IMG/VR virus record: IMGVR_UViG_3300033121_001571
Source of the DNA: a virus
Lineage: Duplodnaviria > Caudoviricetes
Strand: one strand, 5' to 3'
DNA: 64,000 nt
Part shown: one piece after another, positions 1,915 through 45,759 of the stretch
Layout: the number at the start of each line of letters is the position of its first letter
How positions within the stretch are numbered: position 1 is the stretch's first letter
The notes under the pieces: generated by a model
Seen by the model: only the letters and a program-made list of their open reading frames with translations
What the model was told of the DNA's origin: nothing
The model's database searches: none
Program-made: the position numbers and the translations under genes

Positions 1915-2466
1915 TTATGATTTAACCCTAGACCAATAAAGTTCACTCTTGCTGTTTATTTGCGAGAATAGTTCTTTTCGTAAAGAGGGCCAATTCTTCA
2001 ACGAACGATACAACTTTATCAGCAATAACAATCTAGAAAAGTTCACATATAACCGATCTTTTCTAAAGACAAGAATTGAAATAATGCAAAAAATACTATA
2101 CAACGTAGCATACAAATACTCAAAAATTGAGAGTAGAAAAACTAAAGGAAGAACAAAAGGAAATGTGTAAACCAAAGAAAGTAATAAATTTTTAGGTTTT
2201 CTTTGAAAAAGAAGATCTTCATTACAATCAAAGTTTATTTCATAAAAGCTCATTCCATGAGGATCTCTAAAAAAATACACATTAAACGGTATCTCACCTT
2301 TTTCTGTGTACGAAAATCCACGTACACAATAGATACATTCATTTATCTTAGTGAACTTAAAAACAAAGATATCATCAAGTTCATTGTATTGTTGAATATA
2401 TTTTACATTCCTCCATGACTCAGAGATAACTGTAGAAATCATTTTAGTAAGGTTAAAAGTTGCCAT
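1915..2466 (-). CDS. Hypothetical membrane protein
   Basis: 183-aa ORF overlapping the PNK stop, with two hydrophobic segments (LLLSLVYTFPFVLPLVFLLSIF; LYSIFCIISILVF). Confidence 0.6.
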   Translation of the reverse strand: MATFNLTKMISTVISESWRNVKYIQQYNELDDIFVFKFTKINECIYCVRGFSYTEKGEIPFNVYFFRDPHGMSFYEINFDCNEDLLFQRKPKNLLLSLVYTFPFVLPLVFLLSIFEYLYATLYSIFCIISILVFRKDRLYVNFSRLLLLIKLYRSLKNWPSLRKELFSQINSKSELYWSRVKS

Positions 2467-3424
2467 AGTTCACCTGAAAACATGCAAGACCCAAAGATCT
2501 CCACAACTTAACAACAGAGTCTCTGTCATCAAGAACAAAATTGACATAATATTTTCCATATATGTTGTTGACGTACAGTTCCCTTTTTACAATATCATCA
2601 CTTCTAGAATCACCAGCAGTTCTCATGTACAAATCATAATGAATTGGCTTAGAATTTGGCAACAGACAGTGTGCATCAATAAATGCTTGTGTCTGTTGCC
2701 TGTATGTCTCTGGACGTGCAGAGACAAAGATTACTTTTGTGTTCTTGGTGTTAAAAGTAACAACTACGTCTCTAACTGGAGAGTTGATCTTATCTTTCAC
2801 GTGACACTCTGACGCATCATACGGTGATCGATCGCCTATAATTGCTAGAGTTCCGTCAAGATCACATATGATAGCATGGGGCAAAGAATTGTCTTGTTCA
2901 CTTTGATGAACTGGGATATTAGACACAAAGTTATGAACTTTGTCTTCAGGATAAGAAGATCCAACAGAGAATTGCTTGGCCATTCTTAATATGATTTCTG
3001 AGCTCATTGTCAACTCAGAAGAACACGATTCATTCCTCTTGTCATTTCTTTTGACACATTCATCAAGCGGAGTTCGTATCCACTTTTCCTCTACTGTCAA
3101 ACAAGAGAAATACTTGCTCATAGTCAAGACTTCTTTTACTGACTTTGATTTCAAATGTGTGTCATCACAAACAACATCAAAACCAGAATTTAACATATCT
3201 TTCAACAGAGATAACTTCATGTGTCTGACAAGAGATTCATACTTTTCATCTTTGATTGAAAAATCATACCATCGATTGTGAGGTCCGACCAACATATTTC
3301 TTATGTTGTCTCTGTTGAGTCTTAACATAGTCCCATTAGATTCAGCGACTAGTCTAGCAGCGTACGTAGACTTACCAGAGCCAGGTAAACCACGTAAAAC
3401 AACTATCTTTCTAGACGAATTCAT
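2453..3424 (-). CDS. pseT: Polynucleotide 5'-kinase/3'-phosphatase (T4 Pnkp-like)
   Basis: P-loop GLPGSGKST, NRDNIR and DDTHL in the kinase domain; HAD motifs CDLDGT, VSAR and LDDRDSV. Start moved to ATG 3424 (MNSSRK). Confidence 0.92.
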   Translation of the reverse strand: MNSSRKIVVLRGLPGSGKSTYAARLVAESNGTMLRLNRDNIRNMLVGPHNRWYDFSIKDEKYESLVRHMKLSLLKDMLNSGFDVVCDDTHLKSKSVKEVLTMSKYFSCLTVEEKWIRTPLDECVKRNDKRNESCSSELTMSSEIILRMAKQFSVGSSYPEDKVHNFVSNIPVHQSEQDNSLPHAIICDLDGTLAIIGDRSPYDASECHVKDKINSPVRDVVVTFNTKNTKVIFVSARPETYRQQTQAFIDAHCLLPNSKPIHYDLYMRTAGDSRSDDIVKRELYVNNIYGKYYVNFVLDDRDSVVKLWRSLGLACFQVNYGNF

Positions 3425-3428
3425 TCGT

Positions 3429-3459
3429 GGCCGAGAAGCGTACCTTATCGCCCTCGGCC
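3429..3459 (-). promoter_or_regulatory. GC-rich hairpin ending 4 nt upstream of the PNK start codon
   Basis: Minus strand reads GGCCGAGGGCG-ATAAGGTA-CGCTTCTCGGCC-ACGA-ATG. Confidence 0.6.
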
Positions 3460-3538
3460 TTCTGTTTATCAACAAGGATGTTGATTGTCCTACGTGAAGA
3501 GAAAATCACACGTTTAAGTCTGAAAGTCAGTCCTTAGA

Positions 3539-3627
3539 CTCGTTAGTTCTACCATTAAACTACCCAGGCACATGTAAGACTCTTTGAGTCTTGGGCCCGA
3601 GGTGAGAATTGAACTCACATTAACGAG
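3539..3627 (-). ncRNA. Circularly permuted tRNA-like domain 2 (YrlA-like topology)
   Basis: Minus strand: CTCGTT-AAT, T arm GTGAG-TTCAATT-CTCAC, acceptor 3' strand CTCGGGC then CCA, linker hairpin AAGACTC-AAA-GAGTCTT, acceptor 5' strand GCCTGGG, TA, D arm GTTT-AATGGTA-GAAC, T, AACGAG closing the stem. No anticodon loop. Confidence 0.8.
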
Positions 3628-3704
3628 CAATTCAGCAATCAGACGGTTGATTGATTTTTTTACTTCTCGTTCAGACAAATCAGTCTTTGGCAATAGACTG
3701 AGTT

Positions 3705-3798
3705 TGATTACCGCTATGCCTCTGCCAGTTGGGCTATCTCGGCAAGTTTTTTGCCAGCGCCGAGAGAAGGATTCGAACCTTCACTTTTCACAGTATCA
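3705..3798 (-). ncRNA. Circularly permuted tRNA-like domain 1 (YrlA-like topology)
   Basis: Minus strand: TGATACTGTG, T arm GAAGG-TTCGAAT-CCTTC, acceptor 3' strand TCTCGGC, 15-nt loop, acceptor 5' strand GCCGAGA (7/7 Watson-Crick), TA, D arm GCC-CAACTGGCAGA-GGC, then ATAGCGGTAATCA closing a bulged stem. Confidence 0.8.
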
Positions 3799-3854
3799 TT
3801 AGCGTTAGTCTTAAAGTAAGACTGCGCCTTCTGCAACTACGTTGCAGAAATCTT

Positions 3855-4583
3855 TTACTCGAAGATGTAGTTCAACATCTTCTCAGAAACTTTCTGTGCT
3901 TCAATCTCACGACTGTTGCACTCTTCTCTTGCAAATTTCACTGCTTTCTGCAGTTTCTCTACGCGAGAGAGCATATCAGCAACTTTTTGAGCAGGAAGGG
4001 CACCTGAAAACTTCACAGTCTTCCAGGTTCCAACAGTCTTATCTTCATAACCCTCCTTCACCTGAGCAGGATGCTTGTCTGTCGCAGGACTGAGAACGAG
4101 CGGAACAAAGACTTTCTTTGTTCTTGAAGTCTCAGCTGGTCGAGAGACATAAGCACCCACGTTCTTATCGAAGACCCAATCTTCTGAAGGATCAAGAACA
4201 GGAAGCTTGCTAACAAGCGTGTGAATATCTACAAGCTTCTTCTCAAGAAAAAGCAGATAAGTCACTGGTACGCTCTTTGCCAGAACTACATCACCCAGAG
4301 TAATATCAGCAGTCGCTGAGCAATTTGCATAGTCTTTGGTCGCAGTGATATCAAAAAACTCTACAAGAGTCTGTTGAATCTGCTTCAGAGCAGAACTGAC
4401 ATCAACTTGAACCTTAGTTGACTCAGAAGGAAGTTGTTCTCCAACCTCATCATTTGGACGATAAGTCCTAGAGATACCAGACAGCAACGCTGGCTTCTGC
4501 ACCTTCTGATAGAAGTCAGTCAGCGTGTTGTGAGCTTTTGCTTTTACTGATTTTTCAACTGCAACTACCTGACAAAGTCTCAT
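3855..4583 (-). CDS. Conserved uncharacterised protein (recalled as the DUF7873-type family), immediately upstream of the structured RNA
   Basis: Start moved to ATG 4583 (SD AGGTGA), giving 242 aa. MRLCQVVAVEK...KPALLSGISRTYRP...GEQLPSE...VPVTYLLFLEKKL...ATDKHPAQV...KFSGALP...KFAREECN resembles a hypothetical family I recall from actinobacteria and phages. Family name not verified. Confidence 0.75.
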   Translation of the reverse strand: MRLCQVVAVEKSVKAKAHNTLTDFYQKVQKPALLSGISRTYRPNDEVGEQLPSESTKVQVDVSSALKQIQQTLVEFFDITATKDYANCSATADITLGDVVLAKSVPVTYLLFLEKKLVDIHTLVSKLPVLDPSEDWVFDKNVGAYVSRPAETSRTKKVFVPLVLSPATDKHPAQVKEGYEDKTVGTWKTVKFSGALPAQKVADMLSRVEKLQKAVKFAREECNSREIEAQKVSEKMLNYIFE

Positions 4584-4599
4584 TTGTTCACCTGTTTCT

Positions 4600-4628
4600 A
4601 GTATACCGTCCCGTGTGCCAGTGGACAA
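4600..4628 (-). promoter_or_regulatory. Sigma70-type promoter for the protein-ncRNA-PNK unit
   Basis: TTGTCC-N17-TATACT, 16 nt upstream of ATG 4583. Confidence 0.65.
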
Positions 4629-4676
4629 CCCTAGTTTAATACAGTGAAACACTGTGTGAAAACTACAAATGAAAAT

Positions 4677-4744
4677 AGCAAAAAGCAAAACTGAAGACTT
4701 GAAACACCGTCTTAAGTGTCTTGTCTTCAGTTTTGCTTTTTGCT
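4677..4744. terminator. 22-bp perfect inverted repeat after the Hsp20 gene (terminator or processing site)
   Basis: AGCAAAAAGCAAAACTGAAGAC (4677-4698) and GTCTTCAGTTTTGCTTTTTGCT (4723-4744). Confidence 0.6.
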
Positions 4745-4745
4745 G

Positions 4746-5108
4746 TTACTTGATCTCTATCAACCTCTTTGCTGGATTTCTTTTCTTTAACTTAATGTTC
4801 AAGATACCATCTTCGAGCGTTGCAGAAGCTTCTACGATATCAACTACGCCAGAAGGTAACATCAGATCGTAAGATCTACTCTGCTCCTTAAGCGTATACG
4901 CAATATTGATTTTACCCTCAAGCAAAGTACAAGTCAACGTATCTTTCTTAACCCCAGGAAGCTTTACTTCAATCTCTAGGTCTTCTCCCACACTATTCAT
5001 CGTGTAAGAACAAGAGTCTCTAGCGTAGAAGTAATCATCTATAGGAAACGAACTCAAGATATCATCAAAAACTGACTTACGACTTGGAACTAAGAAACGA
5101 CTTAGCAA
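4746..5108 (-). CDS. Small heat-shock protein (Hsp20/alpha-crystallin)
   Basis: IEVKLPGVKK, ASATLEDGILNIKL and C-terminal IEIK (IXI motif). SD AAGGAG before TTG. Confidence 0.85.
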   Translation of the reverse strand: MLSRFLVPSRKSVFDDILSSFPIDDYFYARDSCSYTMNSVGEDLEIEVKLPGVKKDTLTCTLLEGKINIAYTLKEQSRSYDLMLPSGVVDIVEASATLEDGILNIKLKKRNPAKRLIEIK

Positions 5109-5168
5109 CTTTTTCTCCTTTCTTGTGTTGCTTGTTAACAGTAAACACTTACACTCACTTGTAAAGGC

Positions 5169-5549
5169 CTAGTATCCTAACTTTATTCTATTTTTATTTT
5201 TTTCACCCTTTTCAAGGAAAACTTTTTTGAACTCTGACATAGAAAAACCAGAAGCAATCACTATTTCAATCAAGTAGTGCATAGCGTCAGATAGTTCTTC
5301 AAGATACATTTCACGATCAAATTCTTTGACTTCTGTTGCACGATGGTGTTTAGAATTTTTCAACAAGACACAAGCTTCATACATCTCTTCCATACAACAG
5401 TGGACCAATTCTTTTATGTCTCGTTGTCCCTTCTTAGACGTTAAATCAAATGGAGACTTTGGAAAGTTTCTTTCTTGAGAAAGAAGATCCATGAATTCCT
5501 TCTGTTGAAGGAACATCTCTTCTAGAGAATCTTTCATGTTAGATCTCAA
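5169..5549 (-). CDS. All-alpha NTP pyrophosphatase (dimeric dUTPase/MazG-like)
   Basis: EEMYEA, LEELSDAMHY and C-terminal KGEKNKNRIKLGY. Confidence 0.8.
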   Translation of the reverse strand: MRSNMKDSLEEMFLQQKEFMDLLSQERNFPKSPFDLTSKKGQRDIKELVHCCMEEMYEACVLLKNSKHHRATEVKEFDREMYLEELSDAMHYLIEIVIASGFSMSEFKKVFLEKGEKNKNRIKLGY

Positions 5550-45273: not shown

Positions 45274-45439
45274 TTAGAACGTTCTTTCTAAGACTAAGTT
45301 TCTGTTGAAGCTGTTCATTAAGAGAAACTAGCTTTTCATTAAGTGAACTACGAACACTTTCATCAGAAGTAACTTGTAACTCAAGTCTTGTCTTGTTAAT
45401 CTCATCAAGCAACTCAAAAAATGTCATCTGTACATTCAT
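45266..45439 (-). CDS. Small coiled-coil protein upstream of the endolysin
   Basis: The track ORF start overlaps the tmRNA; ATG 45439 (or 45427) lies just after the tmRNA 3' end. Confidence 0.55.
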   Translation of the reverse strand: MNVQMTFFELLDEINKTRLELQVTSDESVRSSLNEKLVSLNEQLQQKLSLRKNVLND

Positions 45440-45443
45440 CCTG

Positions 45444-45759
45444 TGGAGTACTGCGGAATTGAACCGCAGTCCAAGATCTAGAATCACTCAAGTCATTCAC
45501 AGTCTTAGCTAGAGACTAGCGTTTTTTGCTCCAGTAAAGTCTTGAGCAGTGCACTTGATTTTAAAGAGAATCACTCTTTTTTTTGTGACATTCTGTTTCT
45601 AGGCTGTCACAACCCAAGACAAACTAAGCTGCTAGCTTAAGAGAGTCAATGCGGCCGTTATCGTTGGCAACTAACGTTCACTTGGATTTTAATCTGGTTC
45701 CTAGTGTACCAGCGACTGCACTCAAGTAACTTTCAACCCTGTCGAAACCTTTGTACCCC
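45444..45759 (-). ncRNA. ssrA: tmRNA, tag peptide ANDNGRIDSLKLAA
   Basis: 5' end GGGGTACAAAGGTTTCGAC; 3' end GACTGCGG-TTCAATT-CCGCAGTACTCC-A with a G3:U70 pair; tag ORF 45668-45624 follows TAGTT and ends LAA-stop. Confidence 0.95.

What the first reader, a model, noticed from the sequence alone, without database searches (positions are those of the whole stretch)
2453..4628. Candidate undescribed system: uncharacterised protein + tRNA-mimic RNA + polynucleotide kinase as one transcription unit
Seen: a 22-bp hairpin insulates the unit upstream. A TTGTCC-N17-TATACT promoter then precedes a 242-aa uncharacterised protein, whose stop codon is followed within a few nt by ~430 nt of structured sequence with two permuted tRNA-like domains. 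PNK, a membrane protein, a phosphoesterase, a methylase and a nucleotidyltransferase follow, mostly overlapping. Known: T4 Pnkp with Rnl1 repairs tRNA cut by PrrC, and bacterial YrlA RNAs sit beside Ro60/Rsr and often RtcB in RNA-repair operons. Inference: the 242-aa protein occupies the position Ro60 usually holds and may bind the RNA. The resulting RNP could decoy tRNA-targeting defences or scaffold RNA repair. No Ro60 or RNA ligase gene is present in this window.
Basis: partly seen in the sequence, partly recalled or inferred. Interest (0 to 1): 0.88.

Follow-up and report, generated by a model that had tools for sequence, protein, structure and literature searches.

The report
DUF7873 protein with double tRNA-mimic RNA
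This giant phage carries an unstudied protein gene (DUF7873) followed by a folded RNA with two back-to-front tRNA look-alikes; the same gene-RNA pair recurs in hundreds of bacteria and phages and is described in no paper or RNA library I could search, but the neighbouring RNA-repair kinase is only a local neighbour.

Summary
On the minus strand, a 242-aa ORF (3855-4583) is a full-length member of Pfam DUF7873. It is followed by 430 non-coding bases (3425-3854) holding two circularly permuted tRNA-like domains (3709-3794 and 3537-3630), then a T4-type polynucleotide kinase-phosphatase.

The protein-RNA pairing is strongly conserved. The permuted modules occur in the 500 nt after the DUF7873 stop codon in 142 of 159 loci (230 modules). 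Controls gave 2 on the reverse complement and 0 inside the gene. The loci span more than 200 viral contigs and at least 569 bacterial species. All helices covary, and the two heads sit inside one RNA of about 370 nt with its own conserved motifs.

The wider seven-gene "system" is not conserved. PNK is adjacent in 1 of 90 phage loci and 0 of 80 bacterial loci, and no other neighbour is shared across phyla.

Ro60 is not required. 44 of 101 DUF7873-positive Streptomyces genomes and 11 of 15 phage records lack TROVE, and the Ro60-binding motif of YrlA is absent.

DUF7873 has no recognisable fold relative. A symmetric homodimer is predicted (ipSAE 0.69, best control 0.00).

The most likely reading is a Ro60-independent RNA-protein particle built on tRNA mimicry, of unknown function. 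This scan has found the same pair many times on other DNA.

The parts
4674..4747 (-). Long hairpin (perfect 22-bp core) followed by a T-rich tail. It probably terminates the upstream Hsp20-like gene and insulates the unit.
   Evidence: Inverted repeat I1: arms 4674-4705 and 4716-4747, 88% complementary. Hsp20 Pfam hit for 4746-5108.
4600..4628 (-). Promoter-like site TTGTCC-N17-TATACT, 17 nt before the AGGTG ribosome-binding site and the ATG.
   Evidence: 9 of 12 consensus positions. The number of such sites in the region is not above shuffles, so it is only plausible.
3855..4583 (-). DUF7873 protein gene (242 aa). It is the conserved protein partner of the RNA and is predicted to form an intertwined homodimer.
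   Evidence: Pfam PF25283, E 3.8e-99. AF2 model pLDDT 93.4. No fold or sequence relative of known function. Dimer ipSAE 0.69 against best control 0.00.
3490..3854 (-). One structured non-coding RNA of about 365 nt that starts right after the stop codon. Its order is 5' hairpin, module 1, hairpin, module 2 enclosed by a long-range stem, UUAAACG motif, then a 3' hairpin. The ends are inferred, not mapped.
   Evidence: MFE z-score -3.9. Consensus fold of 20 full-length homologues gives 44 pairs, 36 of them with compensatory changes, including long-range stems around each module.
3829..3849 (-). 5' hairpin (9 bp, 3-nt loop) directly after the stop codon. An equivalent hairpin is present in most homologues.
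   Evidence: I3; alignment columns 10-55.
3709..3794 (-). Permuted tRNA-like module 1. In order: closing stem, AAAGU variable loop, T arm 3782-3766, 7-bp acceptor-like hairpin (3765-3759 with 3743-3737, 15-nt loop), UA, and a D arm of the GCCCAA..GG..GAGGC type.
   Evidence: Model R1 73.7 bits, E 2.7e-21 (this sequence was a seed). Rfam YrlA only 23.2 bits against a gathering score of 69. Covariation on alignment A5.
3680..3701 (-). Hairpin between the two modules (7 bp, 8-nt loop).
   Evidence: (I2).
3537..3630 (-). Permuted tRNA-like module 2. It has its T arm at 3618-3602 and a 7-bp acceptor-like stem with an inserted hairpin in its 25-nt loop. These are followed by UA, a 4-bp D arm, and a closing stem CUCGUU/AACGAG.
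   Evidence: Model R2 57.4 bits, E 5.2e-16 (seed). Covariation on alignment A6. Closing stem 6 of 6 pairs.
3518..3644 (-). Long-range stem GUCUGA (3644-3639) with UCAGAC (3523-3518) that encloses module 2. It is flanked by two family-specific single-strand motifs: AUCAAUC at 3655 and UUAAACG at 3517.
   Evidence: Stem columns 280-288 with 409-417 covary. The motifs are found downstream in 83 and 78 of 165 loci, against 10 and 9 on the reverse complement.
2453..3424 (-). T4-type polynucleotide kinase-phosphatase. It is a local neighbour that may be co-transcribed here, since no U-tract terminator lies between. It is not part of the conserved unit.
   Evidence: AAA_33 plus HAD_PNKP; phrog_505. 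Adjacent to DUF7873 in only 1 of 90 phage-set loci and 0 of 80 bacterial loci.

Best explanation
The conserved unit is two genes, not seven. It consists of the DUF7873 protein gene and, directly behind its stop codon, one structured RNA of about 370 nt.

The RNA core is two circularly permuted, anticodon-less tRNA look-alikes. Each has, in order, a T arm, a 7-bp acceptor-like hairpin, U8/R9 and a D arm, and is closed by a stem where the anticodon stem would be.

Proposed mechanism:
1. Protein and RNA are transcribed together.
2. The RNA folds into two tRNA-shaped heads held in a fixed scaffold.
3. A DUF7873 homodimer binds the RNA, giving a particle that works without Ro60.
4. The tRNA-shaped heads let the particle engage factors that recognise the tRNA elbow or acceptor end. 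RNase P, CCA-adding and tRNA-modifying enzymes are known to do this for YrlA.
5. In phages the particle serves the tRNA and translation arm of the genome. Possible roles are as a decoy for tRNA-directed nucleases or as a platform that brings tRNA-handling enzymes together.

In this phage lineage the pair happens to sit in front of Pnkp and may be read through into it.

Shown: the anatomy, the conservation of the pairing, the covariation, the independence from a Ro60 gene, and the non-conservation of PNK. Inferred: co-transcription, protein-RNA binding, the dimer, and any function.
For: - DUF7873 membership.
- Relatives: 75 cultured-phage records, 212 IMG/VR stretches, and at least 569 bacterial species.
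- Position of the modules: they lie in the 500 nt after the stop codon in 142 of 159 loci (230 modules). Controls gave 2 on the reverse complement, 0 inside the gene, and 6 upstream, which I took to be tRNA junctions without checking. The first T arm lies a median of 103 nt after the stop and the second a median of 152 nt later.
- Covariation: the T arm, acceptor and D stems are 97-100% paired with 3-5 pair types per position. Covariation scores are 0.58 and 0.67, against 0.17 and 0.21 in shuffles and at most 0.21 when the partner is slid.
- Closing stem: perfect in 40% of modules, against 5.6% with shuffled partners.
- One RNA: long-range stems enclose each module, and the conserved motifs AUCGAYC and UUAAAYG are strand-specific.
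- Specificity: the covariance models hit only these two sites in the 64-kb window, and hit after the DUF7873 gene in most of the 90 other phage-set loci (read from the tables, not tallied), including several the pattern scan missed.
- Neighbours: no protein neighbour is conserved across phyla, and PNK is adjacent in 1 of 90 and 0 of 80 loci.
- Ro60 not required: 11 of 15 phage records have no TROVE, and 44 of 101 DUF7873-positive Streptomyces genomes have none.
- Dimer: ipSAE 0.69 against best control 0.00. The three runs share at least 97% of contacts and partner pLDDT is 87. This mark was reached by 20 of 30 known homodimers and 1 of 23 monomers.
Against: - There are no transcript, processing or binding data.
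- Gene adjacency alone does not show that the protein binds the RNA.
- The seed modules for the covariation counts were picked by a pattern that already required the three helices. Percent paired is therefore partly circular, although the variety of pair types and the positional controls are not.
- TROVE is present in 57 of 101 DUF7873-positive Streptomyces genomes (odds ratio 1.86, p 0.03, not corrected for relatedness) and in 4 of 15 phage records. In Rhizobium phage RHph_Y65 it lies about 5.4 kb away in the same tRNA island. A link to Ro60 in trans is therefore not excluded.
- The whole genome of this phage could not be searched.
- About 10% of DUF7873 loci show no module with my scan.
- An earlier check recorded in this scan priced the Ro60-independent particle reading at only 22 in 100.
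Confidence: 0.5

Rival explanations
1. The RNAs are ordinary YrlA/YrlB-type Y RNAs that work with a Ro60 protein encoded elsewhere, in the phage or in the host. DUF7873 would be an accessory factor or merely a linked gene.
For: - The architecture is that of YrlA, and Rfam YrlA gives weak hits at the right place (23-37 bits).
- M. smegmatis YrlA also has a 7-bp acceptor stem and is cut by RNase P (PMC4201824).
- TROVE is found in 4 of 15 DUF7873 phage records. In one it lies about 5.4 kb away in the same tRNA island.
- TROVE is found in 7 of the first 10 carrier genomes searched by handle. In a 251-genome Actinomycetota sample it is in 3 of the 4 carriers, one of them counted already.
- The rest of this phage genome could not be searched.
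Against: - 44 of 101 DUF7873-positive Streptomyces genomes lack TROVE, and the association is weak (odds ratio 1.86).
- 11 of 15 phage records lack TROVE, including complete genomes of 68-300 kb.
- In the four bacterial genomes where TROVE loci were scanned, weak YrlA-like hits lie beside the TROVE gene, so Ro60 appears to have RNAs of its own there.
- The Ro60-binding motif GNCGAAN0-1G is not enriched: 37 of 165 loci downstream, against 55 on the reverse complement. It is absent from the window RNA.
- All scores are far below the family's gathering score.
Confidence: 0.15
2. The structured stretch is a cis-acting processing or stability element. Its tRNA-like folds would recruit RNase P or RNase Z to cut the transcript, defining the 3' end of the DUF7873 mRNA or the entry into downstream tRNA or PNK transcripts. 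It would not be a stand-alone functional RNA.
For: - It starts within a few bases of the stop codon.
- In phages it usually lies inside tRNA arrays that RNase P must process.
- The loop after the acceptor 3' strand begins NCCA in 29% of modules (1.6% expected) and AC in 69% of module 1. This is what an RNase P substrate would keep.
- There is a precedent: RNase P cleavage of M. smegmatis YrlA.
Against: - A processing signal needs one tRNA-like fold. It does not need a conserved 370-nt architecture with two different heads, enclosing long-range stems and conserved single-strand motifs.
- The same RNA follows DUF7873 in the bacterial loci, where no conserved gene follows it and the tRNA calls in the downstream 900 nt were few and mostly sat on module 1 itself.
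- Many acceptor loops are only 4-7 nt.
Confidence: 0.12
3. Protein, RNA, Pnkp, membrane protein, phosphoesterase, methylase and nucleotidyltransferase form one RNA-repair or counter-defence system.
For: - The genes lie on one strand with short overlaps: PNK and the 183-aa ORF overlap by 14 nt, and the phosphoesterase and methylase by 14 nt.
- No U-tract terminator lies between the RNA and PNK.
- One close relative (L014, 70% identity) also has PNK beside the pair.
- A first-stage note reports an Rnl1 ligase and a large tRNA set elsewhere in this genome (unchecked).
Against: - PNK is adjacent in 1 of 90 phage-set loci and 0 of 80 bacterial loci.
- The membrane protein, phosphoesterase and Hsp20 are adjacent in none, and the methylase in one.
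- No neighbour family is shared across 20 loci from different phyla.
- The methylase is a DNA N6/N4 methylase.
- The 'nucleotidyltransferase' has no Pfam match.
Confidence: 0.08
4. The modules are circularly permuted tRNA genes, as in Cyanidioschyzon. Their transcripts would be circularised or religated and then opened at the acceptor end to give working tRNAs.
For: - The 3' half precedes the 5' half.
- The modules have a 7-bp acceptor stem, U8, a GG D loop and a TTCRA T loop.
- NCCA follows the acceptor 3' strand in 29% of modules.
- A kinase-phosphatase lies next door here.
Against: - There is no anticodon loop. The closing stem runs on into conserved flanking RNA and long-range stems.
- ARAGORN calls no tRNA in the window and only odd, overlong 'tRNAs' on a few homologues.
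- 71% of modules lack CCA, and many acceptor loops are 4-7 nt.
- No ligase or PNK is conserved with the pair.
- The two heads keep distinct, conserved identities rather than tracking codon needs.
Confidence: 0.04

Closest known systems
YrlA-class bacterial and phage Y RNAs with Ro60/Rsr (Rfam RF02553; Chen et al. 2014, PMC4201824)
   Same: - Non-coding RNA whose core is a permuted tRNA mimic: T arm, then a closed acceptor-like stem, then a D arm, with the RNA ends where the anticodon arm would be.
- Often two RNAs in tandem (YrlA and YrlB).
- Found in bacteria and in phage tRNA regions.
[quoted passage not shown]
   Different: - Encoded behind DUF7873, not beside a TROVE gene.
- Scores 23-37 bits against the family's gathering score of 69.
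- Lacks the GNCGAAN0-1G Ro60-binding motif.
- Both heads are embedded in one conserved RNA of about 370 nt with its own motifs (AUCGAYC, UUAAAYG).
- Present in many genomes without any TROVE gene.
T4 Pnkp with Rnl1, the tRNA repair pathway that counters PrrC
   Same: The downstream gene has the T4 Pnkp architecture: an N-terminal P-loop kinase and a C-terminal HAD phosphatase. The context is a T4-like giant phage (gp23, gp20 and terminase).
   Different: No ligase is in the window. PNK linkage to the DUF7873-RNA pair is not conserved. Nothing ties the tRNA mimic to repair beyond adjacency.
Two-piece (permuted) tmRNA genes and circularly permuted tRNA genes
   Same: The gene order places the T arm and acceptor 3' strand (often with CCA) before the acceptor 5' strand. 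Model R2 weakly hits the tRNA-like domain of the phage's own tmRNA.
   Different: There is no mRNA-like tag frame and no anticodon loop. The modules have a full D arm, unlike tmRNA. The two modules are fixed in one larger scaffold.

Membership tests
Pfam DUF7873 (PF25283) | Full-length match above the curated cut-off of 27 bits | tested here: met
   331.8 bits, E 3.8e-99, residues 2-241 on profile positions 3-242 of 244. The invariant ATDKHPAQ motif is present.
YrlA / bacterial Y RNA (Rfam RF02553) | Permuted tRNA-like domain: T arm, closed acceptor-like stem, D arm | tested here: met
   Both modules show it, with covariation in all three helices.
YrlA / bacterial Y RNA (Rfam RF02553) | Score at or above Rfam's gathering threshold of 69 bits | tested here: not met
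   23.2 bits in the window and 25-37 bits in homologous loci.
YrlA / bacterial Y RNA (Rfam RF02553) | Encoded next to a Ro60/TROVE gene | tested here: not met
   No TROVE in the window. None in 11 of 15 phage records with the pair. In bacteria the TROVE gene, when present, lies about 37-200 kb away. The rest of this phage genome could not be searched.
YrlA / bacterial Y RNA (Rfam RF02553) | Ro60-binding helix carrying the GNCGAAN0-1G motif (Chen et al. 2014) | tested here: not met
   Absent from 3425-3854. Found in 37 of 165 downstream regions, against 55 on the reverse complement and 92 inside the gene, so it is not enriched.
YrlA / bacterial Y RNA (Rfam RF02553) | Physical binding to Ro60 | not testable with these tools
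   Needs immunoprecipitation or a gel shift.
T4-type polynucleotide kinase-phosphatase (Pnkp) | N-terminal P-loop kinase plus C-terminal HAD/DxDxT phosphatase in one chain | tested here: met
   AAA_33 at residues 25-170 and HAD_PNKP at residues 199-340 (E 3.2e-46). phrog_505 polynucleotide kinase, E 3e-81.
Circularly permuted tRNA gene | Halves that together restore a complete tRNA with an anticodon stem-loop | tested here: not met
   There is no anticodon loop. The closing stem continues into conserved flanking structure. ARAGORN finds no tRNA in the window.
Ro60 / TROVE protein | Is DUF7873 a divergent TROVE ring? | tested here: inconclusive
   No TROVE or other Pfam match. Fold searches list no Ro60 among their matches, and the best is 3kdq, of unknown function (Z 9.9, rmsd 8.4 A). 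At 242 aa it is about half the length of the TROVE-containing reading frames found here (463-703 aa in most genomes). A missing fold match does not prove the folds differ.

The most novel reading that the evidence does not exclude
DUF7873 and its two-headed tRNA-mimic RNA form a previously undescribed, Ro60-independent ribonucleoprotein. A symmetric protein dimer would hold one RNA that presents two different tRNA-shaped heads. The particle would be widespread in soil bacteria, carried in phage tRNA islands, and would act on the tRNA-handling machinery. Possible roles are as a decoy for tRNA-directed nucleases or as a scaffold for tRNA processing or repair enzymes.
Probability: 0.35. Interest if true: 0.85.

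Novelty: new variant of a known kind. Interest (0 to 1): 0.68.

Why it matters
Bacterial tRNA-mimic Y RNAs are known only as partners of Ro60, and what their tRNA-like domain does is still open. Here an RNA of the same design, doubled and fixed in a larger scaffold, is tied to a different protein of unknown fold.

The pairing occurs in half of the sampled Streptomyces species, in several other phyla, and in phages of Actinobacteria, Cyanobacteria and Proteobacteria, often inside their tRNA gene clusters. That breadth implies a general and unrecognised function at the interface of tRNA biology and phage-host conflict.

The pair is easy to test, because cultured carriers exist (Gordonia, Arthrobacter, Rhodococcus, Klebsiella, Rhizobium and Vibrio phages, and Streptomyces). 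It would also add a missing family to RNA libraries and correct small 'hypothetical protein' calls laid over the RNA in phage records.

Tried and rejected
- Whole-genome search of this phage for Ro60 or a ligase was not possible, because no genome is held.
- Fold searches of a confident DUF7873 model (pLDDT 93) found nothing at E of 0.001 or better in PDB or BFVD. The wide search gave only 3kdq (unknown function, Z 9.9 at rmsd 8.4 A) and generic helical hairpins.
- A profile search of PDB sequences, NCBIfam, PADLOC and PHROGs gave nothing. The protein atlas returned only DUF7873 clusters.
- I first thought DUF7873 tracked Ro60: 5 of 5 bacterial genomes had both, against 3% of an Actinomycetota sample. 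A within-genus test in 201 Streptomyces genomes showed this was mostly shared phylogeny. The counts were both 57, DUF7873 only 44, TROVE only 41, neither 59. I dropped the idea that Ro60 is required.
- A fixed-register closing stem is only about 53% paired, because the variable loop is 3-6 nt long. A flexible-register count with shuffled partners was used instead.
- RNAalifold on loosely trimmed seeds missed the closing stem.
- The G3:U70 alanine identity pair is not conserved, judged by inspecting the sequences.
- Literature: 'DUF7873' appears in no paper. Searches for permuted tRNA in phages and for phage Y RNAs found only the Ro60-linked work. Burroughs and Aravind 2016 and the 2020 Ro60 review could not be opened.
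- The weak covariance-model hits elsewhere in tRNA arrays are probably junctions between neighbouring tRNAs, not extra modules. I inferred this from their positions and did not check it.

Full report
**What is in the window**

The unit lies on the minus strand of a T4-like giant phage contig. The contig carries gp23 capsid, gp20 portal and terminase genes, plus ribonucleotide reductase, thymidylate kinase, MazG-like and methylase genes. No whole genome is held for it.

Reading 5' to 3' on the minus strand:
- An Hsp20-like gene (4746-5108) is followed by a long hairpin, with arms at 4674-4705 and 4716-4747 and a perfect 22-bp core.
- A promoter-like TTGTCC-N17-TATACT lies at 4628-4600. It matches 9 of 12 consensus positions, and such sites are not above shuffle expectation.
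- A 242-aa ORF spans 3855-4583.
- 430 non-coding bases span 3425-3854.
- A polynucleotide kinase-phosphatase follows. Its likely start is the ATG at 3424, which places the P-loop near the N terminus.
- After it come a 183-aa ORF with a hydrophobic stretch and a calcineurin-like phosphoesterase. Next are an N6/N4 DNA methylase and a truncated ORF with no family match.

**The protein**

The 242-aa ORF is a full-length member of Pfam DUF7873 (E 3.8e-99). It has no PHROG, NCBIfam or PADLOC family and no relative among solved structures.

An AlphaFold2 model built from 62 homologues is confident (pLDDT 93.4, pTM 0.70). It shows long helical hairpins packed against a beta sheet. No significant fold match was found in PDB or BFVD. 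The best was 3kdq, itself of unknown function, at Z 9.9 with rmsd 8.4 A.

Two copies are predicted to form a symmetric, intertwined dimer. The ipSAE was 0.69 in three runs that share at least 97% of contacts, with partner pLDDT 87 and a best control of 0.00. This mark was reached by 20 of 30 known homodimers and 1 of 23 monomers. The nearly invariant residues G36, Y41, S193 and G194 lie in that interface. This supports a dimer but does not show one.

**The RNA**

The stretch folds better than shuffles (z -3.9). It holds two domains in which the tRNA 3' half precedes the 5' half:
- Module 1 (3709-3794) has its T arm at 3782-3766. This is followed directly by a 7-bp acceptor-like hairpin, then UA and a D arm. 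A stem closes the module where the anticodon stem would be.
- Module 2 (3537-3630) has the same plan, with an extra hairpin in the acceptor loop.

ARAGORN calls no tRNA here. Rfam's only relevant match is YrlA at 23.2 bits, against a gathering score of 69.

**Is the pairing conserved?**

DUF7873 relatives are found in 75 cultured-phage records. Their hosts include Gordonia, Arthrobacter, Rhodococcus, cyanobacteria, Klebsiella, Serratia, Rhizobium, Ralstonia and Vibrio.

In all ten annotated phage records I opened, a stretch of about 340-700 nt follows the gene. It is unannotated or carries only tiny 'hypothetical' ORFs, and it usually lies inside a tRNA cluster.

A pattern scan for 'T arm, 7-bp hairpin, U-N, D arm with GG' gave these counts over 159 loci:

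| Region scanned | Modules | Loci with at least one |
|---|---|---|
| 500 nt after the stop codon | 230 | 142 |
| Reverse complement of that region | 2 | 2 |
| Inside the gene | 0 | 0 |
| Upstream of the gene | 6 | 6 |

I took the six upstream hits to be junctions between neighbouring tRNAs but did not check them. The first T arm lies a median of 103 nt after the stop. The second lies a median of 152 nt further on.

Covariance models built from 40 module-1 and 35 module-2 sequences hit only the two sites in the 64-kb window. They also hit after the DUF7873 gene in most of the 90 other phage-set loci, including several that the pattern scan had missed. I read this from the hit tables and did not tally it.

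**Covariation**

The T arm, acceptor and D stems are 97-100% paired, with three to five pair types at most positions. Covariation scores are 0.58 and 0.67, against 0.17 and 0.21 in shuffles (0 of 500 reach the observed value) and at most 0.21 when the partner is slid.

One caveat applies. The seeds were chosen by a pattern that required these helices, so percent paired is partly circular. The diversity of pair types and the positional controls are not.

The closing stem was not part of the selection. It is perfect (6 of 6) in 40% of 208 distinct modules, against 5.6% with shuffled partners.

**One RNA, not two**

A consensus fold of 20 full-length regions gave 44 pairs, 36 of them with compensatory changes. 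These include a long-range stem around module 2. In the window it is GUCUGA (3644-3639) paired with UCAGAC (3523-3518). A shorter stem surrounds module 1.

Two single-strand motifs are family-specific and strand-specific. AUCGAYC occurs in 83 of 165 loci, against 10 on the reverse complement. UUAAAYG occurs in 78 of 165, against 9. Both are present in the window.

The loop after the acceptor 3' strand begins NCCA in 29% of modules, where 1.6% is expected. It begins AC in 69% of module 1. This recalls M. smegmatis YrlA, whose 7-bp stem is cut by RNase P and receives CCA in vivo (PMC4201824).

**What is not conserved**

PNK lies beside DUF7873 in only one of 90 phage-set loci (L014, a 70%-identical relative) and in none of 80 bacterial loci. 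The 183-aa protein, the phosphoesterase and Hsp20 appear in none, and the methylase in one.

Across 20 bacterial loci from different phyla, the only shared protein family is DUF7873 itself. The seven-gene 'system' is therefore a local arrangement.

**Ro60**

No TROVE protein is in the window. Four of the 15 phage records with the pair have one. In Rhizobium phage RHph_Y65 it lies about 5.4 kb downstream in the same tRNA island.

An apparent strong co-occurrence in bacteria largely dissolved within one genus. Among 201 Streptomyces genomes the counts were:

| | TROVE present | TROVE not found |
|---|---|---|
| DUF7873 present | 57 | 44 |
| DUF7873 not found | 41 | 59 |

The odds ratio is 1.86 with p 0.03, uncorrected for relatedness.

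In the four bacterial genomes where I scanned TROVE loci with Rfam, weak YrlA-like hits lie beside the TROVE gene. The YrlA Ro60-binding motif is not enriched in the DUF7873-linked RNA. Ro60 is therefore not required, though a looser functional link remains possible.

**Reading and standing**

The best-supported account is a self-contained protein-RNA module. It resembles a Y RNA particle in design but has a different protein partner.

I found no paper that names DUF7873 and none that describes the pairing. The RNA is not in Rfam 15. Two possibly relevant papers could not be opened.

This scan has reported the same pair many times on other DNA (162 notes in at least 104 genomes). One earlier check priced the Ro60-independent particle reading at 22 in 100. 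Those notes agree with what I found independently before reading them.

My additions are the within-genus Ro60 test, the motif test, the dimer prediction, and the demonstration that PNK linkage is local. Function remains inferred.

Noticed in passing
window 45441-45759 (-): The phage encodes its own tmRNA (Rfam 79.8 bits; tag peptide ANDNGRIDSLKLAA). Model R2 weakly hits its tRNA-like domain at 45436-45480.
   Followed up: partly
L005:3890-4099 (Microcoleus phage My-WqHQDG): A HEARO (IS605-type) RNA (129 bits) sits inside the gap after the DUF7873 gene. The first module there has an 82-nt acceptor loop, so a mobile element seems to have landed in or beside the RNA.
   Followed up: no
L179:5391-6580 (Rhizobium phage RHph_Y65, record 138390-139579): An unannotated gap of 1.2 kb lies upstream of the phage's TROVE gene, in the same tRNA island as the DUF7873-RNA pair. 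It probably holds the Ro60-linked Y RNAs. This phage would allow a direct comparison of the two RNA sets.
   Followed up: no
L001:4663-5131 (Gordonia phage Ziko genes 125 and 126): Two small annotated 'hypothetical proteins' (114 and 210 nt) lie over the conserved RNA. Model R1 hits at 4925-5004 and 5077-5181. They are probably miscalled ORFs.
   Followed up: partly
L053:4980-5219 (-): In this IMG/VR contig the two modules lie on the opposite strand, about 1.3 kb downstream of the DUF7873 gene (60 and 71 bits). This suggests an inversion or a second unit.
   Followed up: no
Streptomyces genomes: Where both genes are on one contig, one TROVE gene often lies about 65-140 kb from DUF7873, as in G001, G196, G272, G299, G329, G367 and G431. 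It looks like conserved chromosomal synteny rather than an operon.
   Followed up: no
window 1915-2466 (-): The 183-aa ORF after PNK has no family in Pfam, PHROGs, NCBIfam or PADLOC and no relative beside other DUF7873 genes. It has a hydrophobic stretch at residues 93-135.
   Followed up: partly
same genome, about 99 kb before the window (first-stage note e1-5710111): A second tandem pair of permuted tRNA-mimic RNAs is reported upstream of alkB in this phage. I could not reach that DNA to see whether a second DUF7873 or a Ro60 gene goes with it.
   Followed up: no
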